Assembly (NCBI GenBank): GCA_964599875.1
Contig: CAZRHE010000006.1
Span: 3,246 to 67,245 of the forward strand
Origin: an uncultured Bacteroidaceae bacterium
GTDB lineage: Bacteria; Bacillota; Clostridia; Christensenellales; CAG-917
Direction: 5' to 3'
DNA length: 64,000 bases
Part shown: one piece after another, positions 3,539 to 61,545 of the stretch
Layout of the letters: each line of letters starts with the position of its first letter
How positions within the stretch are numbered: position 1 is the stretch's first letter
The notes under the pieces: model-generated
Databases searched by the model: none
The model's input: only the letters and a program-made list of their open reading frames with translations
Told to the model about the DNA's origin: nothing
Made by a program: the position numbers and the translations under genes

Positions 3539-4006
3539 TTAGTAACAGAATCTATTGAGATATGCTTCGCAAAGGGATTCGCAGAACAGTTCTTCGTTGA
3601 GGACGACGTTTCCGTCCAAAACTGCGACCATAATGCAGAATTCGATAAATTTCTTTGCAACGTCGCCGTGTCTGATTCTGTCGAATAATTGTATTGTTCT
3701 ATTTCTATGTTCTTGCTTATTGAATCGAGAAATAAGATTGAAAAACATATCGTACGTGTAATTATCAAATTTGGCTGCCGTTATCAAGGCTTCGTATTCA
3801 TCATAAGACAGTCTGCCGTCGTTTGCAGCGACGCAAGCAAATGCACCGAACACGGCGTCGAATGCATCATCTTTGCTGAACCATTCAACGTCTCTCAATG
3901 CATTATAAAGATTGTAAAAGATATTGTACAAGGCGTTTTTGCCGGCGCGGTTTTTGTATGAAATTGCTTGGGCTTTGATTTGCTCGAAAAGTTCGTATGC
4001 GTACAT
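3539..4006 (-). CDS. hypothetical protein, TerB-like helical repeat pattern
   Basis: I trimmed the start to ATG 4006, which is preceded by GAGGAG (the listed ORF begins at 4069). Two ...DG.L...E...L... segments (AANDGRLSYDEYEAL, VLDGNVVLNEELF) recall TerB-type domains. Confidence 0.4.
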   Translation of the reverse strand: MYAYELFEQIKAQAISYKNRAGKNALYNIFYNLYNALRDVEWFSKDDAFDAVFGAFACVAANDGRLSYDEYEALITAAKFDNYTYDMFFNLISRFNKQEHRNRTIQLFDRIRHGDVAKKFIEFCIMVAVLDGNVVLNEELFCESLCEAYLNRFCY

Positions 4007-5663: not shown

Positions 5664-5756
5664 TGGCGGAGAAGAAGAGATTCGAACTCTTGAAACGCTT
5701 TTGACGTTTACGCGATTTCCAGTCGCGCGCCCTCGACCAAACTAGGCGACTTCTCC
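5664..5756 (-). tRNA. tRNA-Ser (anticodon GGA)
   Basis: Hand-folded cloverleaf. Acceptor GGAGAAG/CTTCTCC. Anticodon stem CGCGA/TCGCG with loop CTGGAAA. Long variable arm AAACG..CGTTT. T-arm AAGAG-TTCGAAT-CTCTT. Encoded CCA. Confidence 0.9.
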
Positions 5757-10972: not shown

Positions 10973-12541
10973 TCAATTATTGTTGTTATTGTTGACGTTC
11001 ACCGTCTTTTTAGGGATATTCCAACCGTCTTTTTTCCACTTATTGATTTGGAACAACACTTGGTCGATGAAATCTACGTTGCTCGAAGTCTTCACAAGCA
11101 TACTGAAAAGGGCTTCCGTCGCTTCCAAAGGATCGCCCATGGAGAGTATCTTTCTTACGCCCCAAATGCCTTCGAGTTCTTTGGAACTAAGCAACAATTC
11201 TTCTTTTCTCGTGCCGCTCTTCGCAAGGTCGATTGCGGGGAATATTCTCTTTTCTTGAAGTCTGCGGTCAAGGTGGATTTCCATATTGCCCGTGCCTTTG
11301 AATTCTTCGTAAATGACGTCGTCCATTCTGCTACCCGTATCAACGAGTGCGGTTGCAATAATGGTGAGCGAGCCGCCGTTTTCGATATTTCTCGCGGAGC
11401 CGAAGAAACGCTTGGGAGCATGCAACGCACCGGGGTCGATACCGCCTGAAAGAGTTCTGCCCGTGGGAGGAATCGTGAGGTTGTACGCACGCGCAAGACG
11501 GGTCAAACTATCCATAAGAATTACTACGTCTTTTCCCGTTTCGACCATACGTTTCGCGCGTTCTAACAGCATTTCCGCGGTCTTGGTGTGATGTTCGGGA
11601 AGTTCGTCGAAAGTGGAATAAACCACTTCTCCGTTGATCGAGCGTTGCATATCCGTGACTTCTTCGGGACGCTCGTCGATGAGGAGCACCATCAAAACGA
11701 TTTCGGGATAATTTATGGAAATCGAATTGGCAATCATTTTAAGGAGGGTGGTTTTGCCCGCTTTAGGCGGAGATACTATCATACCTCTCTGTCCTTTGCC
11801 TATAGGTGCGACGAGGTCGATGCTGCGGGTTGCGTAATCGCGAGATTTGCCTGCGACTTCAAGTCGTATTCTTTGGTCGGGATAGATGGGGACGAGGTCG
11901 TCGAAATTGGGACGTCTGCCCATAGTGAGAGCGTCTACGCCGTTAATAGTAGTGACGGTGACGACCGCAGGAGGCTTGCCCTCTTGAATGAGTTTGCAAC
12001 CCGCCTTGACGTAATCACCTTTTCTAAGACCGTATTGTTTGATTTTTTGAACGCTGACGTATGCGTCCATTTCGCTGAATTCACCCGTTTTTACGCGCAA
12101 AAATCCGTAACCGTCGGGATTGATTTCAAGGAAACCTTCTCTAACTTGGTCGTCTTCGTCCTTTCTTTCGCGCAAAACTTCGGGGCGTTTGAATCCCGTA
12201 TTGCCGTAACTGCGGACGGTACGATAATCTCCGAAGCCTTTTTTATCGTCTTTTTTATAGAATTTTTTCTCTTCGGGTTTATCTTCTTTATTTTCTAAAT
12301 TATCGGATTTTTCTTTAATATTATTATCGGTTGCGTTTACCGCAGAATTTGCGTCTTTTCTGGGACGACCGCGTTTGGGTGCTTGTTGCGGTTGCATTTC
12401 GCCTGTCGAAATTTTAAAAATCATGTCGATAAGTTCTGCTTTTTTATGCTTTTGTATAGCTGATACTCCGATTTCTTTTGCAATATCTCTTAATTCAAAT
12501 AAACCTTTTCCTTCGAGTTCTTGTCTGGTATAACTCTTCAT
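10973..12541 (-). CDS. rho: transcription termination factor Rho
   Basis: 522 aa. Rho_N-like LFELRDIAKEIGVS. Walker A PPKAGKTTLL. Conserved C-terminal ATPase region. AAGGAGG lies before the ATG. Confidence 0.95.
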   Translation of the reverse strand: MKSYTRQELEGKGLFELRDIAKEIGVSAIQKHKKAELIDMIFKISTGEMQPQQAPKRGRPRKDANSAVNATDNNIKEKSDNLENKEDKPEEKKFYKKDDKKGFGDYRTVRSYGNTGFKRPEVLRERKDEDDQVREGFLEINPDGYGFLRVKTGEFSEMDAYVSVQKIKQYGLRKGDYVKAGCKLIQEGKPPAVVTVTTINGVDALTMGRRPNFDDLVPIYPDQRIRLEVAGKSRDYATRSIDLVAPIGKGQRGMIVSPPKAGKTTLLKMIANSISINYPEIVLMVLLIDERPEEVTDMQRSINGEVVYSTFDELPEHHTKTAEMLLERAKRMVETGKDVVILMDSLTRLARAYNLTIPPTGRTLSGGIDPGALHAPKRFFGSARNIENGGSLTIIATALVDTGSRMDDVIYEEFKGTGNMEIHLDRRLQEKRIFPAIDLAKSGTRKEELLLSSKELEGIWGVRKILSMGDPLEATEALFSMLVKTSSNVDFIDQVLFQINKWKKDGWNIPKKTVNVNNNNNN

Positions 12542-45747: not shown

Positions 45748-45821
45748 GCGAATGTAGTTTAGTGGTAAAACAGCAGCTTCCCAAGCTGCGGTTGTGGGTT
45801 CGATTCCCATCATTCGCTCCA
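45748..45821 (+). tRNA. tRNA-Gly (anticodon CCC)
   Basis: Hand fold. Acceptor GCGAATG/CATTCGC. Anticodon stem GCAGC/GCTGC with loop TTCCCAA. T-loop TTCGATT. Encoded CCA. Confidence 0.9.
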
Positions 45822-48225: not shown

Positions 48226-48490
48226 CCGTGCGCCGACTCCGACAATTCATACCGAAGCGGTAGCCGAATAGGTGACTCCTCCAAAGTTTCCCCGTGGCAC
48301 ACGCGTCTTTTCGCTTAGTGCTGCTGCGGTCAAGCTCTGACACGGTTCACGACGACGCATTGCACGGGACCTTGCTATCAACGTTCCTTGTTCGACGCGG
48401 CCAACCATACGAAAGGCCTCGATCGGTGTTCGACACTGCTATGGCGGATTGCAGTTTACAGGGCACCGCCAACTCCCCGTTTAGCACGGC
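48226..48490 (-). ncRNA. ffs: SRP RNA, long Bacillus-type with Alu domain
   Basis: The minus strand reads GCCGTGCTAAACGGGGAGTTGGCGGTGCCCTGTAAACTGCAATCCGCC..., close to the B. subtilis scRNA 5' domain as I remember it. ...GAACCGTGTCAG...AGCAGC... matches the domain IV flanks. The 5' GCCGTGC can pair with the 3' GCACGG. It has its own promoter and terminator. Confidence 0.8.
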
Positions 48491-53428: not shown

Positions 53429-54775
53429 AATGCTACAATTTGAATGGCAAAACGTTTCTCAAGGCAATTGCAATTGTCTTGAGAAACTATCGAATCGCAA
53501 ATTAAGTTGAAAATGTTATATGCGAAAAATCCGTCACATTGGACGGTTTATTTTTTTTGAAAATACACTTTCAAAAAAACTATTATAGTAACGCTAATTG
53601 TTCTGCAAACTTTTCGTTTGCTGTCCCGTAATCAAAGATTGCGCGAGGATAATCGTTCAACCAATCTTGCACGAACTGAATTTGTTCATCCGTATAATCT
53701 CTAAAGTTTATGCCTTTCGGCAAATGCCGTCGAATATCTCTATTCAATCGTTCGTTTGTGCCACGTTCACAAGACGTATACGGATGACAGTAATATACTT
53801 GTGTTCGTTTGCCCGTATATATTGAACGCTCCATGCCTTTTGAATCAGAGAATTCAACGCCGTTATCTATGGTTATACTTTTGAATACATCCTTAAATCT
53901 CACACCGAATTTCTGTTCGAGTTCATCCAAACTTTTAACAACGGTTTCCGTCTTGCGATTAGGCATTTTTATAATTATCTCATAACGTGTCAAACGTTCC
54001 GAAAGAACCAGCAACACGTCTTTTGTAGACTTTTTCCCTATCACGCAATCCATCTCCCAGTTGCCAAAAGTATTTCTATCGTTTATTTCCGCCGGGCGTT
54101 TTTCAATGCTTGTTCCACTTGGAGCACGCTTGACGACTATTTTCCGATATTTCTTTTTATGTCTATACATAGGGCAATCACTCATTTTGAGGTGAGGAAA
54201 GTATCCTTTTTCGATATATCGATACAATGTCGTTTTACTTATATCGGTCTCGAAAAGCTTATAACGTTTAATCTCTCCAAGTACGGCGCACGGAGATATT
54301 TTATCCTCGAGTACGCGTTTTTCGACATAGTTCACAAAATCGTAATCTTTTCCCAATTTAATAGGTGCTCCGTGGGCAGTCTGATTGATTCTATATCTAT
54401 CTTCGGCAATATTTGCACTATAAGAATCAACCATTTTATAGCGTCTATCTCCAAACCAATCTGCACGCTTGAGTGTTTTATGCTGATAATAACCTCTTTG
54501 TAATTCCCGATAAATTGTAGAAATGGAAACACCTAATTGCTCGGCAATTAACTTTTTATGTAAACCCTCTTTTAATAGTGCTTCTAATTGAATACGTTGT
54601 GTTAATGTTAAATTTTTTGTGCCTTTCTTTTTCATAGTACCGTCACCCTCCTTCGTATTATCAATTAAATTGTTTTCACAGCATTTTGTTCAAACAAATC
54701 AAATATTACTTTCTAACAAAAAAAATATCATATTGGCTCTTCCCTTGTCAATTCCCTAAAAAGCAACATTCTAAT
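53429..54775 (-). mobile_element. IS30-family insertion sequence (boundaries approximate)
   Basis: It contains the IS30 transposase gene. There are only weak, imperfect terminal similarities (AATGCTACAATTTGAATGGCAAA at about 53429 versus the reverse complement of about 54745-54770), so the ends are not established. A TTGACA-18-TATTTT promoter-like site lies near 54750 on the minus strand. Confidence 0.5.
53583..54635 (-). CDS. IS30-family transposase
   Basis: 350 aa. N-terminal HTH (LTLTQRIQLEALLKEG..STIYRELQRG). DDE region NWEMDCV ... ITIDNGVEF ... ERGTNERLNRDIRRHLPKG. GAAGGAGGG SD. Confidence 0.93.
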   Translation of the reverse strand: MKKKGTKNLTLTQRIQLEALLKEGLHKKLIAEQLGVSISTIYRELQRGYYQHKTLKRADWFGDRRYKMVDSYSANIAEDRYRINQTAHGAPIKLGKDYDFVNYVEKRVLEDKISPCAVLGEIKRYKLFETDISKTTLYRYIEKGYFPHLKMSDCPMYRHKKKYRKIVVKRAPSGTSIEKRPAEINDRNTFGNWEMDCVIGKKSTKDVLLVLSERLTRYEIIIKMPNRKTETVVKSLDELEQKFGVRFKDVFKSITIDNGVEFSDSKGMERSIYTGKRTQVYYCHPYTSCERGTNERLNRDIRRHLPKGINFRDYTDEQIQFVQDWLNDYPRAIFDYGTANEKFAEQLALL

Positions 54776-54796
54776 TATGGTCTTCTAGCAATCTTA

Positions 54797-55222
54797 ACGG
54801 CGGCGCCATTGATATGTGGATGAATCTTCGATTAACCCACATACCAACCGCTCTTTCCGCCGTAGGCTATCGCGGAAGTTTGAATGAGCCTATCAATGAT
54901 AGCAACATATCATTTATTAAGTAACAGAACTCTTCTTGCCTAGCGTGCTAACGCTTGAGGTCCCCCTACCCCCAAAAAATATTGACGATTTCTCGTCCGG
55001 CGCACCTGAACTTTTACATCCGATGCCTACGGCTCATTTTATCAGCGTGGGCTGAGCCATCATCGATTTTATCAGTCTGTCAGATTTGCCATTTCTAACA
55101 ATGATTGCGCTTTGCGCACTCGATGCGTTTATAACCCTACTCCGTATCGGCGGAGTGCATCACCCGTTCTCATATATTCTCTTCGAAGGTTGAACCTTCT
55201 CTCGCATTCTCGTATGTATACG
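54797..55222. other. hairpin-dense non-coding region (candidate structured RNA or ssDNA origin-like region)
   Basis: No ORF of 60 aa or more in any frame between 54636 and 55251. At least ten stem-loops are readable by eye, including the nested pair ACGGCGG(54797)/CCGCCGT(54857) enclosing TATGTGG(54813)/CCACATA(54837), AGCGT-GCTA-ACGCT(54942), ACTCCG/CGGAGT(55139) and GAAGG/CCTTC(55185). Confidence 0.5.
55036..55075. repeat. direct repeats ATTTTATCAG x2, 30 bp apart
   Basis: Exact 10-mers at 55036-55045 and 55066-55075. A related CATCGATTTTGATTTT occurs at about 56103-56118. Confidence 0.6.
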
Positions 55223-55251
55223 TGCGATATTATTGATACAACTTGTTTTTT

Positions 55252-55587: not shown

Positions 55588-55689
55588 AATTTTCCTCGAT
55601 TATATTACTCCCCCTTACCCCCGTGCAAAACGGGGATTTAGAGCATTATATTTTGTTAGATTTATCTAAACGCGCGACCGCGCGAACTT

Positions 55690-56172: not shown

Positions 56173-57147
56173 CTATTCATCTTCAGTCCCTTCTCCTTCA
56201 TCGTATTTGTTTGCTTCGGCATACGCCTTTATGTTCGCTTGACTTAGATTGTGCATCACGCCGGGATGCTCTTTTGTTCCGATTGTATTCATGCCGAGGT
56301 AGAACAGCGCACGACACGAATTTGATTGATAGTATTTGTATATATCGCCCTCGAAGACAAGTTTTTGATTGCGACATACATATTCGTCGGTTGGTAGACT
56401 TGTCAAACGAGCCATTTCGAATTCTTGATGCAATATAACGTCATACGTCCATATCGATCGCACTCGATGCCACGGCCGTTTTTTACCCCAATATTTCGGG
56501 TTAAATAGCCACTTCAATCTAAACGGTTCTTTTTCATATTGATGCTTTAGGTTTTTGATTTGCACCTCATACATGACGAGATCTCGTGCGGCCTTATCGA
56601 GTTTTGCCATAGATTGAGTGTCGCCGATTACCGTCAGATTGTTATGGCCGAGCAATTTAAACGCTTCGAAGGTTCTCTGTTTTCGTTTCGAATCCTTGCT
56701 CCACGTTCTGTTGGATAATCCGAGATCAATTTCCGGAAAATTCATCACCGAATACGGCAATAGATATTGAAATCCATAACTATTACTTTCATCGGGTAAA
56801 CCAAAGTCAGATACATCCATATGCAACGTCTCACGTTTTGCATCGACATCGAGGTATATTTCATCTCGAGAAAAGTAACATGTCCTCGGACATTTCACAT
56901 TTCTATAAGAGCGTCTGTCGTCGAACATTAGTTGTTCTATAAACTTACGTTGCTCCTCAATACGCAAAGATTCAAATCTTCGTGCATCGTTCACTATCAA
57001 TGCCGTATTAAACGACGTTTTACCTATTCTCTGTCTGCCAGTAGTTACGACAAGCCCTGTCGCAAGCATACCATCCTCTCTAAACAAAGGATTTTCATTC
57101 CTATGAATTATTGCAGTTTTTGGTTTCTTTCTCATTTTGATTGACAA
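56173..57147 (-). CDS. Zot/pI-like P-loop NTPase (no TM segment detected)
   Basis: Walker A TGRQRIGKTS. Walker-B-like VMNFPEID. LLGHNNLTVIGDTQSMAKLDKAARDLV resembles the HRH.G.D....TQ....I...VR.LV block of Zot-family NTPases. Start is TTG 57147 (MSIK...) or ATG 57135. No SD. Confidence 0.55.
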   Translation of the reverse strand: MSIKMRKKPKTAIIHRNENPLFREDGMLATGLVVTTGRQRIGKTSFNTALIVNDARRFESLRIEEQRKFIEQLMFDDRRSYRNVKCPRTCYFSRDEIYLDVDAKRETLHMDVSDFGLPDESNSYGFQYLLPYSVMNFPEIDLGLSNRTWSKDSKRKQRTFEAFKLLGHNNLTVIGDTQSMAKLDKAARDLVMYEVQIKNLKHQYEKEPFRLKWLFNPKYWGKKRPWHRVRSIWTYDVILHQEFEMARLTSLPTDEYVCRNQKLVFEGDIYKYYQSNSCRALFYLGMNTIGTKEHPGVMHNLSQANIKAYAEANKYDEGEGTEDE

Positions 57148-57169
57148 TGAATTTTGTTTCGCTTATTAT
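57141..57169 (+). promoter_or_regulatory. plus-strand promoter-like element TTGACA-17-TATTAT (antisense to the island genes)
   Basis: TTGACA at 57141-57146, TATTAT at 57164-57169. Caveat: the TTGACA is the complement of the TTG-TCA-A start codons of the Zot-like gene. Confidence 0.45.
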
Positions 57170-57175
57170 TTAGGC

Positions 57176-57278
57176 AAGGTACGCCCCCCTATTCGCATTA
57201 GTCGAATGGTGTTGCCAGAGGCTCAGGTCGTCTGACAGGGCACATTGAAGAAGAAGTATTTTACTTCTTCTTTTTCTT
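57176..57278 (+). ncRNA. candidate convergent antisense sRNA A (about 100 nt)
   Basis: It lies between the promoter above and the plus-strand terminator AAGAAGAAG-TATTTTA-CTTCTTCTT plus T-run (57248-57280). The TAA stop of the 139-aa gene sits in the terminator loop. Internal hairpins ATTCG/CGAAT and TCAG/CTGA. C-rich GCCCCCCTA near the 5' end. Confidence 0.4.
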
Positions 57279-57680
57279 TTGTTTTCTTCTATTTTTTTTG
57301 CCAGTATGATACAAGACTTTGTCTGTATCCTTTTTACTCAGAACAAAGCGCTCGTTTTGTTCCGGAAATACATCCTTATCTTCTATCTTTAACGGCTTTT
57401 TCGACATGCGATTTATGCCAAACTTTTCATAATCCACTCCGGTGCGGACTTTGAGTCCGTATCTATCTTGATTGATTTCCACGAGTGCCTTATCTGCATT
57501 CTTACCATTGTCATCAAAAATTTTTATGGATTTAAGTTTCGACACCTTCACACGCTTTCCGTCATCGAATACGACGACGTAACTTCTTTCGGGTTTCGTA
57601 TCCTTATCTATGTATTTCGTTTTGGCTCGATACACTTTGCCGACTTTTGTACTTTTATTATCCGTTTTCATGCTGCACAC
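57261..57680 (-). CDS. small Lys-rich basic protein, paralog family member 1
   Basis: 139 aa. About 87% identical (hand count: 100 of 115 aligned residues) to the 133-aa protein at 61144-61545. Poly-Lys C-terminus. Its start overlaps the upstream gene's stop (TAGTG). Confidence 0.7.
   Translation of the reverse strand: MCSMKTDNKSTKVGKVYRAKTKYIDKDTKPERSYVVVFDDGKRVKVSKLKSIKIFDDNGKNADKALVEINQDRYGLKVRTGVDYEKFGINRMSKKPLKIEDKDVFPEQNERFVLSKKDTDKVLYHTGKKNRRKQKKKKK
57290..57650. repeat. dispersed direct DNA repeat, copy 1 (partner 61165-61525)
   Basis: The two small-protein genes share long identical runs, e.g. the 38-nt AGTCCGTATCTATCTTGATTGATTTCCACGAGTGCCTT at 57454-57491 and 61328-61365. Confidence 0.8.
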
Positions 57681-58693
57681 TAAATTGTCACGTCAACGTT
57701 GCCGAGGAAGATATCAAATGTTTCTGAAATTTTCCCACATACAACGGTTACTGTTATGACATAATTCGTGGCACTATAGTTAAGTGCTTCCAATACGGCA
57801 TTTCTCATGCAGTTTTTAGCACCATCTACGTCAGATGGATAGTATGTGGAAACCTGCGTAAAACGGTCGCTAAATATATCGCCACACAACAAATCGAGCG
57901 AAAGCGTGAGTTCCGTATCATAATGTACAGGCAAAGTTTGCACCATAGACAAATTGTATTTCCCGGACATATAACTTTTTATAACGTTACGAGCATCTCC
58001 CATTAATCCATTTGATTTTTCGGAAATTTGCCAAAAGACTTCAACATCCTCATCTCTGCCCATCGAATAGACTTCGTCTTCATAAAAAACACGCGGAATA
58101 AGAGTATATGTGTCTGCATCATTCAAAACGTCCACTTTCCATCGACCGTAATAATTTGTATCATTTCCTTTACTGCTGAGTATTTGGAGTCCTACAGATC
58201 GAACGTTCTCTTTTGCAATATAATCAACCGTGACGGTAGCAAACATATCAGGACGCTCTGCCAAGTAACACTTTACGATGATTTGTTCTCCAAATGCTTG
58301 CAGCAAAGTGACGTCACATATATTGTCTTTTTTTTCATCAATGGTTAGAGTAACATAGTCAGTAACTGTTTTTCCGTCTGCCCAAAAAGAATCTGCTTCA
58401 TTAAATTCGATAGACCACTCCAAAGACTTATACATAGAATCATAGGGAAATACGCTTGCGGTCAATCTATATGTATTGTCGTTCTCCGCTTCACTGAATG
58501 CAATTGCAATTCCATTTTCAAACGAGCTTTCCACTACAAATTCAGTATCAATATTTGTATTAGCGGTGTTATCAGTGCTGTTTGAACGATTGATATTATA
58601 ATAGAAACATCCAAATACTGACGCACCAATAAGCAAGATGCTCAATATGCTTGTGACGATAATGATTGCTGTTTTTTGTTTTGTGATATTCAT
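57680..58693 (-). CDS. secreted/membrane-anchored protein with Ig-like (Big_2-like) domain, paralog 1
   Basis: 337 aa. N-terminal hydrophobic anchor ending ..SVFGC. LTASVFPYDSMYKSLEWSI...DYVTLT...VTLLQAFGEQIIVKCY fits the Big_2 pattern. GGAG SD. Confidence 0.6.
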   Translation of the reverse strand: MNITKQKTAIIIVTSILSILLIGASVFGCFYYNINRSNSTDNTANTNIDTEFVVESSFENGIAIAFSEAENDNTYRLTASVFPYDSMYKSLEWSIEFNEADSFWADGKTVTDYVTLTIDEKKDNICDVTLLQAFGEQIIVKCYLAERPDMFATVTVDYIAKENVRSVGLQILSSKGNDTNYYGRWKVDVLNDADTYTLIPRVFYEDEVYSMGRDEDVEVFWQISEKSNGLMGDARNVIKSYMSGKYNLSMVQTLPVHYDTELTLSLDLLCGDIFSDRFTQVSTYYPSDVDGAKNCMRNAVLEALNYSATNYVITVTVVCGKISETFDIFLGNVDVTI

Positions 58694-58769
58694 ATTTTCT
58701 CCGTTGTGTCATGGTTTCCGCCGTGTCGGTTTTTCGCACATACTATTTGATTAATTCAATTTCATGCGC

Positions 58770-58799
58770 TTGACAATTGTATTAGTGTTATGGTAATAT
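58770..58799 (+). promoter_or_regulatory. plus-strand promoter TTGACA-18-TAATAT
   Basis: It lies within a 39-nt block (58761-58799) that matches 61020-61058 at 30 of 39 positions, ungapped. The -35 overlaps the palindrome ACAATTGT. Confidence 0.5.
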
Positions 58800-58805
58800 T
58801 CTACC

Positions 58806-58892
58806 GAAGAAACGTTTTGTAGCTGCGGTTTTACCGAAGTGCTCGTTGCAGAATAGCGAATTTAGTTTCGACGTGCGCGTTTCTTCTTTTTA
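58806..58892 (+). ncRNA. candidate convergent antisense sRNA B (about 85 nt)
   Basis: The 9-bp closing helix GAAGAAACG(58806)/CGTTTCTTC(58878) is followed by T5. TACCGAAG occurs twice inside. The 3' end overlaps the stop codon of the 100-aa gene. Confidence 0.35.
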
Positions 58893-59192
58893 TTTCTTTT
58901 TAATTATTTTGTCTACTTTTTTCTTGTCTTGTTCAGACAATTTAAATGGTAGCTTTTCTTTGTCAAATTGATTCTGTCTATCTCTTTGAGGATTATTTTT
59001 AATATAGGCAACAGAATCATCATTTATATTTGGATTTTCATCCAGCTTAATGTTTTTTATTCCACGTGTTATCGGCGAATGAGTTATCCCGAGAAACATA
59101 AAATCATCTCCTATTTGAGCATATATATACGCAGGATGACCGCTCTTTTTGTATTTTCTAAATTCGTTTCGTTTATGTAATGTTTTTCTCAT
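58890..59192 (-). CDS. small Lys-rich basic protein, distant paralog family member 2
   Basis: 100 aa. It shares the C-terminal F.LS..D..K(V/A) motif and Lys tail with the 139/133-aa proteins. GHPAYIYAQIGDDFMFLGITHS recalls the RP.hh....h.h.ITS pattern of SH3-like PemK/MazF folds (weak). Confidence 0.6.
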   Translation of the reverse strand: MRKTLHKRNEFRKYKKSGHPAYIYAQIGDDFMFLGITHSPITRGIKNIKLDENPNINDDSVAYIKNNPQRDRQNQFDKEKLPFKLSEQDKKKVDKIIKKK

Positions 59193-59203
59193 TTGTATTT
59201 CTC

Positions 59204-59743
59204 CTATATGTCATACGACGTGCTTTCAGCTTCGTATTTCTCGAGCAATTCATCCAAATACTTGATAACACTCTGATATCCGGCAACACGGTCGTGAGCA
59301 CGTTGGGTACGTTTATTGATGCGGAGATTTGCCAACTTGCGTTCGTATCGATATTGAGCTTTCAGCGACAACGCAGGTTCATCGGCGCATGGTTGCGTTT
59401 CTATCACTTGCATCGAATCATGTTTTTGTATGGTTTCAACACGCTGTATTGCTTCCTGAATCGATATTTGCACATCTTCGGGCTCATCGTTCGGCTCGTC
59501 AAAATCCGTGAGCGGAGATCCACCCCTCCTAATCTCGTTCCCGGATGGTTTCTCTTTAGCATTTGGTTCCTCTGACGCATCTGTTTCCGTGATTGGGTCA
59601 TCCACGATTTTATATGGATATTCGATCACTTCGACGTAGTCATCGTCATAAGGAGATTTCCGCACGGATTCAAGTTCATCCTTAATCCGTGCGTAGCAAT
59701 GCAACTTAACTTCTTGTATTAACAATTTGATTTGAGCATCCAT
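59204..59743 (-). CDS. hypothetical acidic protein
   Basis: 179 aa, with an Asp/Glu/Pro-rich centre and helical ends. I recognise no motif. Confidence 0.55.
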   Translation of the reverse strand: MDAQIKLLIQEVKLHCYARIKDELESVRKSPYDDDYVEVIEYPYKIVDDPITETDASEEPNAKEKPSGNEIRRGGSPLTDFDEPNDEPEDVQISIQEAIQRVETIQKHDSMQVIETQPCADEPALSLKAQYRYERKLANLRINKRTQRAHDRVAGYQSVIKYLDELLEKYEAESTSYDI

Positions 59744-59748
59744 ATTTT

Positions 59749-60942
59749 TTAAAAAACTATTGATTCCGTATCCAACTCCACAGACGTCGGAGACGTGTAC
59801 ATACCTCGTAAATTTAACTTCACTGTCGTATCTTTATAAGTTATTGAAACCTCGAAAAAAGGCATATAAATATCATCGCTTTCTGCAGCGCTTAAATAAC
59901 GCATCGCAAGGATTTGATAATATCCGTTTTCATCACCTTCACTATATGACACCAAATCAGTGTACCAAGATGATATGGGCTGAACACGATAATACCAATG
60001 CTTAGGAGCATAAGTGTTAGAATAAGCTTTTTCTCTTTCCACTGACACTAAATAATTCAACCTATTTTTTGCGATATTATAATCTCTACTTCCATAAAAT
60101 TCCTCATCATAGCCATTGGCGTAAGTATCAGCTTTATCAGCTACTTGAGAAAACATGGTGGAGCTGTCAATGATTCTCGTGTCTTTTAATTCACTTGAAA
60201 TCAATTCCAAATCTAAAAGACCGCCTTCAAATTTTTCCAAATACAATCCGGCTTTAAAACTTCCAACCAAATTCACTTTAACATCGATGTTTATCTCATC
60301 GGAATCTAAAGCGCTTACACCAAACACGTCCCAAAAATGAATATTCGTCTCATGCCTTTCATAATCTAAAATATTGTATACGGTTCTTGTTGAAGATCCA
60401 TATTTCAACGGATTATCTTTATCATAATTCTCTACAACTGCATTATCATATGTATTCGATTCTTCATAATTAATCGTAAAAGTCATCGCAGCGCCGGAAT
60501 ACGTACACTCAACTGCGGCGCGGAATCCGCCAAGTCGAGTAACAGCGATAAGTCCAATAGTTGCAAGAGGAAAATTTTTGATACAAGTAATGGTGGCATC
60601 GTTTGAACCGTCATAATCAGGTGTTACGGTCACATAATCAGATGCTTCTCCTTCTAATCCTTTGTTGTTATACCATGCAACAGACCAATCGACTTCTTTG
60701 TTGGCAGCATCTTCAGGATAGACGTTAGCACGTACTCTTCTCGTCAAAGAATCTTCACTCGCCGAAACAGCTTCAGTGTCAACCATAGCAAGCGAAACAC
60801 CCTGTATCGAAGTGCATTCTTCGAGATCTATCGCATCAGCCTCGACATTATGGTTTTCTCCTGTATCGTTACACGCACAAAACGCGCACAACATCGATGC
60901 AATTATTACGAAGATTGAAATCAATGATACTATTTTTTTCAT
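59749..60942 (-). CDS. secreted lipoprotein-like protein with Ig-like (Big_2-like) domain, paralog 2
   Basis: 397 aa. Signal MKKIVSLISIFVIIASMLCAFCAC. RVRANVYPEDAANKEVDWSV...DYVTVTP...ATITCIKNF fits Big_2. AAAGGAGAA SD. Confidence 0.6.
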   Translation of the reverse strand: MKKIVSLISIFVIIASMLCAFCACNDTGENHNVEADAIDLEECTSIQGVSLAMVDTEAVSASEDSLTRRVRANVYPEDAANKEVDWSVAWYNNKGLEGEASDYVTVTPDYDGSNDATITCIKNFPLATIGLIAVTRLGGFRAAVECTYSGAAMTFTINYEESNTYDNAVVENYDKDNPLKYGSSTRTVYNILDYERHETNIHFWDVFGVSALDSDEINIDVKVNLVGSFKAGLYLEKFEGGLLDLELISSELKDTRIIDSSTMFSQVADKADTYANGYDEEFYGSRDYNIAKNRLNYLVSVEREKAYSNTYAPKHWYYRVQPISSWYTDLVSYSEGDENGYYQILAMRYLSAAESDDIYMPFFEVSITYKDTTVKLNLRGMYTSPTSVELDTESIVF

Positions 60943-61028
60943 AGTTATTTTCTCCTTTGGGATTTATAGATTTGTTTATATTTTTCCGATTCTTTTCTCC
61001 GATATGATACTTTGTCACTTTCATATGC

Positions 61029-61058
61029 TTGACAATTTTGTATGTATTATGGTAGGAT
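61029..61058 (+). promoter_or_regulatory. plus-strand promoter TTGACA-18-TAGGAT
   Basis: Homologous to the block at 58761-58799. Confidence 0.5.
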
Positions 61059-61064
61059 CTCACC

Positions 61065-61158
61065 AAGGTAGCTCATCCGTAACAATTATTCAAACGGAGT
61101 TATCGGGGACAATTGTCGTCCGATAGAGCGTCACGAGGCATTATTAGCCTCGTTTTTT
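61065..61158 (+). ncRNA. candidate convergent antisense sRNA C (about 95 nt)
   Basis: Hairpins TCCGT/ACGGA and TATCGG..GACAATTGTC..CCGATA. Canonical terminator CGAGGC-ATTATTA-GCCTCG plus T6 (61134-61158). The TAA stop of the 133-aa gene sits in its loop. Confidence 0.45.
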
Positions 61159-61545
61159 ATTACGTTTTTTCTGTTTTGTATGATACAACGCCCTATCCTT
61201 ATCTCTCTTGCTCAACTCAAATCGTTCATTTTCTTCCGGGAAAACATCTTTATCGTCGATTTTCAGCGGCTTTCTTGACATTCGATTTCTATCGAAGACT
61301 TGGTAATCCACTCCGGTGCGTACTTTTAGTCCGTATCTATCTTGATTGATTTCCACGAGTGCCTTGTCTGCATTCTTACCGTTTTCATCGAAGATTTTGA
61401 TAGATTTGAGTTTCGATACCTTTACCCTACGCCCGTCATCGAATACGACGACATAGTTGCGCTCAGGCTTTGTGTCCTTATCTATGTACTTCGTTTTAGC
61501 TCGATACACTTTTCCTACTTTTGAGCCATCGATTATTGTTCTCAC
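61144..61545 (-). CDS. small Lys-rich basic protein, paralog family member 3
   Basis: 133 aa. GTG start preceded by GAGGAG. See 57261-57680. Confidence 0.7.
   Translation of the reverse strand: MRTIIDGSKVGKVYRAKTKYIDKDTKPERNYVVVFDDGRRVKVSKLKSIKIFDENGKNADKALVEINQDRYGLKVRTGVDYQVFDRNRMSRKPLKIDDKDVFPEENERFELSKRDKDRALYHTKQKKRNKKRG
61165..61525. repeat. dispersed direct DNA repeat, copy 2 (partner 57290-57650)
   Basis: See copy 1. Confidence 0.8.

What the first reader, a model, noticed from the sequence alone, without database searches (positions are those of the whole stretch)
57141..61158. Three convergent plus-strand promoter / ~90-nt RNA / terminator cassettes at the module boundaries
Each of the three intergenic gaps in the minus-strand gene array contains, on the opposite strand:
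- a promoter with a consensus TTGACA -35 and a -10-like hexamer: TTGACA-17-TATTAT at 57141, TTGACA-18-TAATAT at 58770, TTGACA-18-TAGGAT at 61029;
- a hairpin plus T-run oriented for plus-strand termination, about 85-100 nt downstream (57248-57280, 58878-58892, 61134-61158).

Every cassette ends on top of the stop codon of a small Lys-rich protein gene. In two cases the TAA lies in the terminator loop, and the T-run is the complement of the Lys codons. I could not find comparably good minus-strand promoters in the same gaps.

The predicted RNAs would therefore be cis-antisense to the intercistronic regions and 3' ends of the island mRNAs. This arrangement is reminiscent of lambda OOP RNA or the convergent RNA I/RNA II of par(pAD1), but here it is repeated three times and paired with non-toxin-like basic proteins.
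Basis: seen in the sequence. Interest (0 to 1): 0.7.

Follow-up and report, generated by a model that had tools for sequence, protein, structure and literature searches.

The report
Small RNAs paired with MazF-like genes
The three promoter/small-RNA/terminator cassettes are real and conserved: each is the partner of the small basic protein gene it converges on, two of those proteins have a MazF toxin fold, and the pairs look like an undescribed kind of RNA-antidote toxin-antitoxin module on a phage-like element of gut Clostridia.

Summary

In about 27 independent homologous loci, every intact copy of the 133-136 aa Lys-rich protein gene ("K") is followed by the same cassette on the opposite strand. 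The cassette has a sigma-70-type promoter, a ~70-nt three-way-junction RNA with a conserved 5' tail (CAAGGUAGCG), and a terminator lying over the protein's stop codon. Stems covary: 95.7% of cells pair, 10 of 17 pairs change on both sides, and no shuffle reaches this. No Rfam family matches.

The 100-aa protein ("k100") has its own RNA class, in which a 5'/3' closing helix doubles as the terminator.

This is wrong for K: its AlphaFold model matches MazF/PemK endoribonucleases. Other points:
- No protein antitoxin gene is conserved next to K.
- The RNA class follows the convergent protein, not the downstream gene.
- The cassette sits in different slots of related elements.
- K decays while the RNA persists, never the reverse.

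Best reading (about 0.5): a toxin-antitoxin-like pair with type I geometry and a type III-like toxin fold. Nothing was tested experimentally.

The parts
57141..57169 (+). Promoter of sRNA-1 (TTGACA-17-TATTAT)
   Evidence: 11/12. The same -35 and -10 hexamers and spacing occur in all homologous loci.
57175..57285 (+). sRNA-1, K-type. 5' tail CAAGGUA. Three-way-junction core at 57175-57245: P1 GCCC/GGGC, then P2 and P3. Terminator hairpin 57247-57273 plus U run.
   Evidence: Fold. Covariance model R2 gives a full-length match at 57175-57245 (9.9 bits, E 0.25 within the island). The closest relatives L001, L147 and L154 have the same architecture with different stem sequences.
57261..57671 (-). 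K136, a 136-aa basic protein with a MazF/PemK-like fold (putative toxin). Its last ~6 codons and stop codon overlap the sRNA-1 terminator.
   Evidence: AlphaFold2 model pLDDT 87. Foldseek top hits are all MazF, probability 1.0, and PemK/MazF in BFVD.
58770..58799 (+). Promoter of sRNA-2 (TTGACA-18-TAATAT, TG-extended)
   Evidence: The promoter region is 80% identical to that of sRNA-3 over 40 nt (D3).
58806..58891 (+). sRNA-2, k100-type. The 5' arm (58806-58815) pairs with the 3' arm (58877-58886) to form a closing helix that is also the terminator stem. Two inner hairpins. U run at 58887-58891.
   Evidence: Seven relatives downstream of k100 homologues have the same architecture, each with a different helix sequence.
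58890..59192 (-). k100, a 100-aa basic protein (putative second toxin family). Its stop codon lies in the U run of sRNA-2.
   Evidence: Not detectably related to K. The structure model is of low confidence. MazF-like motifs (HPAYIY, GITHS) come from reading the sequence only.
61029..61058 (+). Promoter of sRNA-3 (TTGACA-18-TAGGAT, TG-extended)
61064..61159 (+). sRNA-3, K-type. 5' tail CAAGGUA. Core at 61064-61133: P1 GCUC/GAGC, then P2 and P3. Terminator 61133-61153 plus U run.
   Evidence: Fold z-score -5.3. R2 gives a full-length match (8.7 bits, E 0.49 within the island). L161 has the same P1 (GCUC/GAGC) and scores 54.8 bits.
61144..61545 (-). K133, a paralogue of K136 (82% identity). Its stop codon lies in the loop of the sRNA-3 terminator.
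56173..57135 (-). Zot-like P-loop ATPase gene (context). It lies downstream of cassette 1, and its start codon is 6 nt from the -35 of sRNA-1.
   Evidence: Pfam Zot, 25.3 bits against a cut-off of 20.3. Sequence.

Best explanation
Each cassette plus the small basic protein gene it converges on forms a two-gene module. The protein is a MazF/PemK-fold putative endoribonuclease toxin. The RNA is a constitutively transcribed, structured ~90-110-nt molecule that acts as its antidote.

Shown:
- The RNA genes exist and have near-consensus promoters and one-way terminators.
- The RNA folds into a conserved three-way junction with covarying stems and conserved unpaired nucleotides.
- The RNA always overlaps the 3' end of the protein gene. 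The hairpin does not terminate the protein's strand, so the RNA is complementary to the whole 3' flank of that mRNA.
- The K protein has a MazF fold.

Inferred:
- K is toxic.
- The RNA neutralises it in one or both of two ways. It may pair with the 3' region of the K mRNA and trigger its decay, as SR6 does for yonT (type I logic). It may also bind the protein directly through the conserved tail and junction, as ToxI binds ToxN (type III logic).
- The modules stabilise, or give exclusion or defence functions to, an integrated ssDNA-phage-like element. That element carries a Zot-like ATPase and, in relatives, a HUH/SF3 Rep protein and an integrase.
For: 1. Strict co-occurrence. About 27 independent intact K genes all carry the cassette. 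Four independent decayed K genes keep an intact RNA: the second cassette of L154-157, the second of L002, L020, and L024/25. The reverse was never seen. This is the asymmetry expected for a toxin and its antidote.

2. Toxin fold. The K model (pLDDT 87) matches S. aureus, B. subtilis and M. tuberculosis MazF with probability 1.0 and TM 0.5-0.66, then Kid, CcdB and ToxN. In BFVD it matches PemK/MazF endoribonucleases. hhalign aligns LVEINxxRYGL with HVEIDAKRYGF of B. subtilis MazF (E 1.2e-3).

3. No conserved protein antitoxin. The genes upstream of K are 337-691-aa membrane proteins, small unrelated ORFs, or nothing.

4. The RNA is selected as a folded molecule on the promoter strand. 95.7% of cells pair, 10 of 17 pairs change on both sides, 0 of 500 shuffles reach this, and slid controls give 16-50%. 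22 of 25 unique sequences fold into the same junction by minimum free energy alone. A G.U is conserved in P3, and G.U outnumbers A.C 10 to 3.

5. The RNA class tracks the convergent protein family, not the downstream gene. The colinear elements L147 and L148 carry K or k100 in the same slot, each with its own RNA type, ahead of the same p179-zot genes. A third basic-protein family has a third RNA.

6. The cassette occupies different slots. In L161-163 it stands alone between two opposite-strand genes.

7. Precedents. yonT/SR6 has the same geometry (PMC5848175). Type III toxins share the MazF/Kid fold (PMC5086642).
Against: - No expression, toxicity or binding data exist.
- K matches no toxin family by sequence (Pfam, NCBIfam, PADLOC, PHROGs, PDB). 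The fold match is moderate (TM about 0.5-0.6), and the MazF/CcdB barrel also occurs in proteins that are not RNases.
- Catalytic-residue equivalence (R29, S48) rests on my own motif alignment, not on a superposition.
- K was found only inside this one family of elements. It is their most conserved protein (52-84% identity, against 25-45% for neighbours). This could instead mean a core life-cycle role.
- Two or three such modules in a ~10-kb element is a lot.
- The fold of k100 is unsupported.
- The window's own K-type RNAs score only weakly against the covariance model.
Confidence: 0.5

Rival explanations
1. The RNAs are cis-antisense regulators or insulators of the element's long minus-strand operons. 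Strong convergent promoters and the resulting RNA duplexes would attenuate or process read-through into the downstream genes (Zot-like ATPase, surface proteins). They would thereby set the production level of the element. In this reading the K and k100 proteins are incidental neighbours or co-regulators.
For: In the window and many loci, the downstream gene starts within 6-90 nt of the RNA's -35. No good promoter for it lies in the gap. Its mRNA must therefore contain the full complement of the RNA. The terminators do not stop minus-strand transcription.
Against: - The RNA class follows the convergent protein and not the downstream gene.
- The downstream gene differs between loci. It can be zot, p179, a lipoprotein, a 98-aa or 202-aa ORF, or none in L161-163.
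- Conserved unpaired nucleotides and covarying stems are not required for a purely cis-antisense effect.
- Orphan RNAs persist next to decayed K genes.
Confidence: 0.2
2. K and the RNA form a non-toxic ribonucleoprotein with a core role in the element, such as regulating lysogeny or production, or handling ssDNA or RNA. The MazF-like barrel would serve only as a nucleic-acid-binding scaffold.
For: - K is the most conserved protein of these elements, and every K homologue found lies in such an element.
- The RNA has conserved single-stranded motifs suitable for protein recognition.
- The protein has a basic surface and tail.
Against: - K can be replaced by the unrelated k100 in the same slot.
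- K is present in 1-3 copies per element.
- K decays in several loci whose neighbouring element genes still give full-length protein matches (L020; L154-157).
- All of this is more typical of accessory cassettes than of a core function.
Confidence: 0.15
3. The cassettes are complementary-strand origins. Host RNA polymerase would make a primer RNA antisense to the gene-sense strand, which is presumably the packaged one.
For: - The RNA has the polarity expected of a primer on the gene-sense ssDNA.
- Relatives encode a HUH/SF3 Rep.
- The conserved TAGCGA resembles the CS-6 motif of ssoA origins (from memory only).
Against: - The promoters are ordinary linear duplex promoters with no hairpin to rebuild them in ssDNA.
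- Each element has two or three copies, of different classes.
- The RNAs end at proper terminators.
- Each RNA is tied to a specific protein family.
Confidence: 0.04

Closest known systems
yonT/SR6, and likewise bsrG/SR4 and txpA/RatA: type I toxin-antitoxin systems of Bacillus subtilis prophages (PMC5848175)
   Same: - A ~100-nt sRNA with its own promoter is transcribed convergently.
- It overlaps the 3' end of the toxin gene within a prophage operon.
- It is also antisense to the 5' side of the next gene.
- SR6 acts on the 3' UTR and promotes RNase III decay.
   Different: - Those toxins are hydrophobic peptides of under 60 aa. Here the proteins are 100-136 aa, basic and soluble, and K has a MazF fold.
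- The ORF overlap is only ~3-20 nt.
- The RNA has a deeply conserved three-way junction and conserved unpaired motifs.
- There is no sequence relationship.
Type III toxin-antitoxin systems ToxIN, CptIN and TenpIN (PMC5086642)
   Same: - A protein toxin with a Kid/MazF-like fold is paired with a structured non-coding RNA and no protein antitoxin.
- The systems occur in Firmicutes of the gut.
- The RNA type is specific to the toxin family.
   Different: - Type III loci are one operon: a tandem array of 34-45-nt repeats, then a terminator, then the toxin gene on the same strand, with the RNA processed by the toxin.
- Here the RNA is single-copy, has its own promoter and is convergent. There are no repeats. 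The fold is a three-way junction, not a pseudoknot.
- There is no sequence match to ToxN, CptN or TenpN models.
Type II MazEF/PemIK
   Same: The fold of the K protein matches. The motif order is collinear: GxVY, R-x-x-VVV, KLKS, VEIxxxRYG (my reading).
   Different: - No Pfam PemK match.
- The K profile does not reach canonical MazF among 1.84 billion representatives.
- There is no upstream MazE-like gene.
Lambda OOP RNA and par(pAD1) RNA I/RNA II
   Same: A short convergent antisense RNA overlaps the 3' end of a protein gene on a mobile element.
   Different: - OOP has no conserved structured family linked to a toxin fold.
- par uses a shared bidirectional terminator and 5' repeats, and its toxin is the 33-aa peptide Fst.
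- Here the terminators are unidirectional and the protein is MazF-like.

Membership tests
Type I toxin-antitoxin | The antitoxin is an antisense RNA complementary to the toxin mRNA | tested here: met
   The RNA genes overlap the last 3-20 nt of the ORFs. They are fully complementary to the 3' flank, which the protein's strand must transcribe because it has no terminator there.
Type I toxin-antitoxin | The toxin is a small (usually under 60 aa) hydrophobic membrane peptide | tested here: not met
   The proteins are 100-136 aa, Lys-rich and have no hydrophobic segment. The K model is a soluble MazF-like barrel.
Type I toxin-antitoxin | The RNA lowers toxin mRNA stability or translation | not testable with these tools
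   Needs Northern blots, half-life measurements and RNase III mutants.
Type III toxin-antitoxin (ToxIN/CptIN/TenpIN) | The toxin is an endoribonuclease of Kid/MazF-like fold | tested here: inconclusive
   Fold met for K. Enzymatic activity was not tested. The k100 fold is unresolved.
Type III toxin-antitoxin (ToxIN/CptIN/TenpIN) | A tandem array of short RNA repeats lies upstream of the toxin on the same strand, separated by a terminator | tested here: not met
   No tandem repeats apart from T-rich runs. The RNA is single-copy, convergent and downstream.
Type III toxin-antitoxin (ToxIN/CptIN/TenpIN) | Sequence membership of the toxin in known families | tested here: not met
   No PADLOC, Pfam, NCBIfam or PDB sequence match.
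Type III toxin-antitoxin (ToxIN/CptIN/TenpIN) | The RNA binds and inhibits the protein directly | not testable with these tools
   Needs EMSA, co-purification or a structure of the complex.
Type II MazEF/PemIK | PemK/MazF sequence family, and an adjacent protein antitoxin gene | tested here: not met
   No Pfam PemK hit even at E up to 10. The upstream genes are large membrane proteins or absent.
Any Rfam 15 RNA family | Covariance-model match at or near the gathering score | tested here: not met
   No hit in the gaps at gathering score. Only sub-threshold terminator-like matches at E up to 10.
par(pAD1) RNA I/RNA II | Convergent RNAs share a bidirectional terminator, and the toxin is a ~33-aa peptide | tested here: not met
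   The hairpins have a U run on the + strand only. The proteins are 100-136 aa.
Inovirus-like integrated element (context only) | pI/Zot-like morphogenesis ATPase, rolling-circle Rep, integrase | tested here: inconclusive
   Pfam Zot at 25.3 bits against a cut-off of 20.3, but a partial match and no transmembrane segment. Rep_OBD plus an SF3 helicase in L006. Tyrosine integrase in L148-150 and L161. No coat proteins identified. Absent from IMG/VR and GenBank phages.

The most novel reading that the evidence does not exclude
These modules would be a new type or subtype of toxin-antitoxin system. A MazF-fold toxin would be neutralised by a single-copy, convergently encoded three-way-junction RNA that acts both as a cis-antisense RNA (type I geometry) and as a direct protein inhibitor (type III logic). 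At least two, and possibly three, non-cross-reacting protein/RNA families would be swapped like cassettes among ssDNA-phage-like elements of gut Clostridia.
Probability: 0.35. Interest if true: 0.8.

Novelty: new variant of a known kind. Interest (0 to 1): 0.72.

Why it matters
- It adds a conserved structured RNA family with strong covariation and no Rfam entry. It also adds an unannotated protein family (83 clusters at 50% identity) whose fold points to MazF-type RNases.
- If the pairs are toxin-antitoxin modules, they bridge type I and type III systems. They would show that MazF-fold toxins can be controlled by a convergent sRNA instead of a MazE protein.
- It explains a sequence oddity. 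The Lys-rich C-termini of these proteins are the antisense reading of the sRNA terminator stem and U tract.
- It flags a family of integrated, Zot- and Rep-encoding elements in gut Clostridia that current viral and plasmid collections do not contain.

Tried and rejected
- A degenerate DNA pattern scan of metagenome contigs returned almost only chance matches. One true locus, L084, emerged. The same pattern found only a false hit in IMG/VR (L026).
- K-family searches found nothing in IMG/VR, GenBank phages or PLSDB plasmids.
- Pfam, PHROGs, NCBIfam, PADLOC and PDB sequence searches gave no family for K, k100 or their neighbours, apart from Zot.
- The k100 structure prediction failed (pLDDT 57). 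hhalign of K against k100 was not significant. The MazF-like nature of k100 therefore remains a reading of motifs.
- RNAalifold on a plain MAFFT alignment recovered only 3 pairs. A hand-defined structure and covariance-model-based realignment were needed.
- Covariance model R2 detects the window's own K-type RNAs only weakly. They belong to a divergent subclass, and their homology rests on position, promoter, 5' tail and shared architecture.
- A search for a trans target of the conserved 5' tail (CTACCTT) found none in the island beyond the cis site.
- Classical type III repeats are absent.
- The primer or origin idea was considered and rated unlikely.
Full report
**1. What is in the window.**
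From about 54.7 kb to the end of the window, GC content falls from about 47-50% to about 35-40%. All sizeable ORFs in this stretch lie on the minus strand.

Read in the direction of transcription, the genes are:
- a 127-aa ORF;
- a 691-aa membrane protein (m691);
- K133 (61144-61545);
- gap 3;
- a 397-aa lipoprotein;
- a 179-aa acidic protein (p179);
- k100 (58890-59192);
- gap 2;
- a 337-aa membrane protein;
- K136 (57261-71);
- gap 1;
- a Zot-like P-loop ATPase (56173-57135; Pfam Zot 25.3 bits against a cut-off of 20.3);
- two small ORFs;
- an IS30-type transposase.

**2.
The consensus scan places TTGACA promoters on the + strand at 57141, 58770 and 61029. They score 11/12, 10/12 and 10/12, and the last two have a TG extension. 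They are three of only six sites in 9 kb that reach 10/12.

Plus-strand terminators follow at 57247-57273 and 61133-61153. In gap 2 the terminator stem is a helix between the 5' end of the RNA (58806-58815) and its 3' end (58877-58886), followed by a T run.

The stop codons of K136 and K133 lie in or beside the terminator loops. The stop codon of k100 lies in the T run. None of the hairpins has a T run on the minus strand, so minus-strand transcription should read through them.

**3. The cassette is conserved wherever the protein is.**
K136 and K133 are 82% identical. k100 is unrelated to them.

K belongs to an unnamed family:
- 289 close homologues in the word-indexed database;
- 83 clusters at 50% identity among 1.84 billion representatives;
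- no Pfam, NCBIfam, PADLOC, PHROG or PDB sequence match.

Loci came from GTDB genomes and from assemblies. The hosts are gut Clostridia, Christensenellaceae, Pumilibacter muris and a Phascolarctobacterium bin.

In every locus with an intact K gene and enough flanking sequence, the opposite strand downstream of the stop codon carries the following:
- TTGAC(A/T), a 17-19-nt spacer and a TAnnnT -10 hexamer;
- about 6 nt further on, the sequence CAAGGTAGCG...;
- a terminator hairpin over the stop codon.

No Rfam 15 family matches, either at gathering score or at E up to 10.

**4. The K-type RNA is a structured molecule.**
All members share one architecture:
- a single-stranded 5' tail of 7-8 nt (CAAGGUA);
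- a short closing helix P1 (GCG/CGC, GCUC/GAGC, GCCC/GGGC, GCAC/GUGC, GUGC/GCAC);
- hairpin P2;
- a U-rich joiner;
- hairpin P3 (usually GUCGG...CCGAC) with a 1-2-nt bulge on its 3' side;
- a separate terminator.

I built a covariance model from seven sequences and a hand-drawn structure. It was used to realign 17 loci. On that alignment:
- 95.7% of cells pair;
- 10 of 17 pairs change on both sides;
- none of 500 shuffles reaches the observed values;
- structures slid by 1-3 columns pair at only 16-50%.

This alignment was fitted to the model. As an independent check I folded 25 unique sequences singly. Of these, 22 give the same junction by minimum free energy.

A G.U pair is conserved in P3. 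Overall, G.U outnumbers A.C 10 to 3 in the paired columns. This favours the promoter strand as the functional one.

The second model, R2, finds one copy beside each K gene.

The window's own two K-type RNAs belong to a divergent subclass and score only 9.9 and 8.7 bits. Several points still support their membership:
- the matches are full-length and lie at exactly the expected places;
- the close relatives L001, L147 and L154 have the same architecture with compensating stem changes;
- L161 shares P1 (GCUC/GAGC) with sRNA-3 and scores 54.8 bits.

**5. A second and a third class.**
Every k100 homologue examined is also followed by a convergent consensus promoter and an RNA (L001, L008 twice, L147, L148-153). 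In this RNA the 5' end pairs with the 3' end over 8-11 bp directly before the U run. The helix sequence differs in each of the eight examples.

In L148 and L149 a third small basic protein (200 or 148 aa, with a Lys/Arg-rich tail) has the same arrangement with yet another RNA.

In all three classes the basic C-terminal tail is the antisense reading of the terminator 3' arm and U tract.

**6. The protein has a toxin fold.**
The AlphaFold2 model of K136, built from 52 sequences, is confident (pLDDT 87, pTM 0.79).
- Against the PDB, Foldseek returns almost only MazF (S. aureus, B. subtilis, M. tuberculosis), with probability 1.0, E down to 3.8e-4 and TM 0.5-0.66. Kid, CcdB and ToxN follow.
- Against BFVD, it returns PemK/MazF endoribonucleases of phages.
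- hhalign of the K profile against B. subtilis MazF aligns LVEINxxRYGL with HVEIDAKRYGF (E 1.2e-3, probability 20%).

By my own reading the motifs are collinear: GxVY; ER-x-YVVV against VRPVLVI; KLKS against AITA. This would place the invariant R29 and the nearly invariant S48 at the MazF catalytic Arg and Thr positions. That is inference, not a superposition.

For k100 the model failed (pLDDT 57) and the profile comparison with K is not significant.

**7. The pair is the unit.**
*The RNA follows the protein.* L147 and L148 are colinear element by element. In the slot before the p179-like and Zot-like genes, L147 has K with a K-type RNA, and L148 has a k100-type protein with a k100-type RNA. 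The RNA therefore follows the convergent protein, not the downstream gene.

*The cassette moves.* It sits in other slots elsewhere:
- after a SprT-like gene and small ORFs in L154-160;
- next to the integrase and repressor in L161-163.

In L161-163 K is the only plus-strand gene between two minus-strand HTH genes. There, no adjacent co-directional gene exists for the RNA to regulate.

*Decay is one-sided.* Four independent cases show a decayed K with an intact RNA gene:
- a second cassette in L154-157, where only a K-tail remnant survives;
- a second cassette in L002, with only the C-terminal 79 aa;
- a frameshifted K in L020;
- a K with several stop codons in L024/25.

I found no intact K without the RNA.

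*No protein antitoxin.* No small gene is conserved upstream of K that could encode one.

**8. Context.**
Relatives carry:
- a Rep with a HUH origin-binding domain and an SF3 helicase (L006);
- a tyrosine integrase and an HTH repressor;
- large surface or membrane proteins, and a Zot-like ATPase.

The elements are therefore integrated and resemble ssDNA phages, possibly inoviruses. Coat proteins were not identified. The family is absent from IMG/VR, GenBank phages and PLSDB. A paper on Enterocloster inoviruses mentions Zot-like genes but no such RNAs (PMC10061712).

**9. Interpretation.**
The best-supported reading is a toxin-antitoxin-like module in which the RNA is the antidote of a MazF-fold protein.

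The geometry matches type I systems of Bacillus prophages. In yonT/SR6, a 100-nt RNA overlaps the toxin's 3' end and the next gene's 5' end, binds the 3' UTR and promotes RNase III decay (PMC5848175). The toxin fold and the structured, family-specific RNA recall type III systems, whose toxins share the MazF/Kid fold (PMC5086642).

Defining features of both types fail here:
- the protein is not a small hydrophobic peptide;
- there is no repeat array and no same-strand operon.

The tools cannot decide whether the RNA works by antisense pairing, by direct binding, or by both.

Rival readings:
- operon insulation or antisense control of downstream genes;
- a non-toxic ribonucleoprotein;
- a priming origin.

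The second and third are not excluded and are ranked lower for the reasons given under each. No expression or toxicity evidence exists, so I put the main reading at about 0.5.

**10. Verdict.**
The finding is real, and more interesting than a set of boundary antisense RNAs. It consists of:
- a conserved, unclassified structured RNA family;
- a second and probably a third RNA class;
- obligate pairing of each with small MazF-like or basic protein genes on an uncatalogued family of mobile elements.

Noticed in passing
window 55600-55680; L148 about 11650-11900; L150 about 11160-11330: A non-coding stretch downstream of the p111-like gene is conserved between the window and distant elements (CCCCCTTACCCCC ... 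AGATTTAT.TMAACG.CGACGCGCG). It could be an origin or an attachment site.
   Followed up: no
L154-157 3605-3674; L002 11448-11706; L020 10001-10480; L024/L025: These are orphan sRNA genes. An intact promoter, RNA and terminator sit next to truncated, frameshifted or stop-riddled K genes. The reverse case, an intact K without the RNA, was not seen.
   Followed up: yes
L148 10516-11245; L149 10544-11130: A third small basic protein family (200 or 148 aa, motif GAVVVD...LAIVKLTTS, Lys/Arg-rich tail) has its own convergent TTGACA-17-TAxxxT RNA and terminator. It occupies the slot that holds a k100-type cassette in L147. No Pfam hit.
   Followed up: partly
window 58756-58795 and 61015-61054: The promoter regions of sRNA-2 and sRNA-3 are 80% identical over 40 nt, although the RNAs they drive belong to different classes (D3).
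   Followed up: no
window 57261-57285, 58887-58900, 61144-61160: The Lys-rich C-terminal tails of all three small proteins are the antisense reading of the sRNA terminator 3' arm and U tract. Their composition may therefore be dictated by the RNA gene rather than by protein function.
   Followed up: partly
window 56173-57135: The Zot-like ATPase has a P-loop but no predicted transmembrane segment. There is no Shine-Dalgarno sequence ahead of its ATG, which sits 6 nt from the -35 of sRNA-1. A minus-strand terminator follows the gene at 56099-56081.
   Followed up: no
window 53583-54635: An IS30-like transposase gene (read from the sequence; not scanned against a library) lies at the left edge of the low-GC island. 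Between it and the island, 54700-55250 has no ORF of 90 aa or more.
   Followed up: no
window 48226-48489, 45748-45818, 5667-5756: The higher-GC, presumably chromosomal part of the window holds a bacterial large SRP RNA and two tRNA genes.
   Followed up: no
L148-L150, about 12.0-12.8 kb: A ParE-toxin gene pair lies just beyond the right end of the related element. L147 ends in a tRNA-like sequence, which suggests integration next to a tRNA.
   Followed up: no
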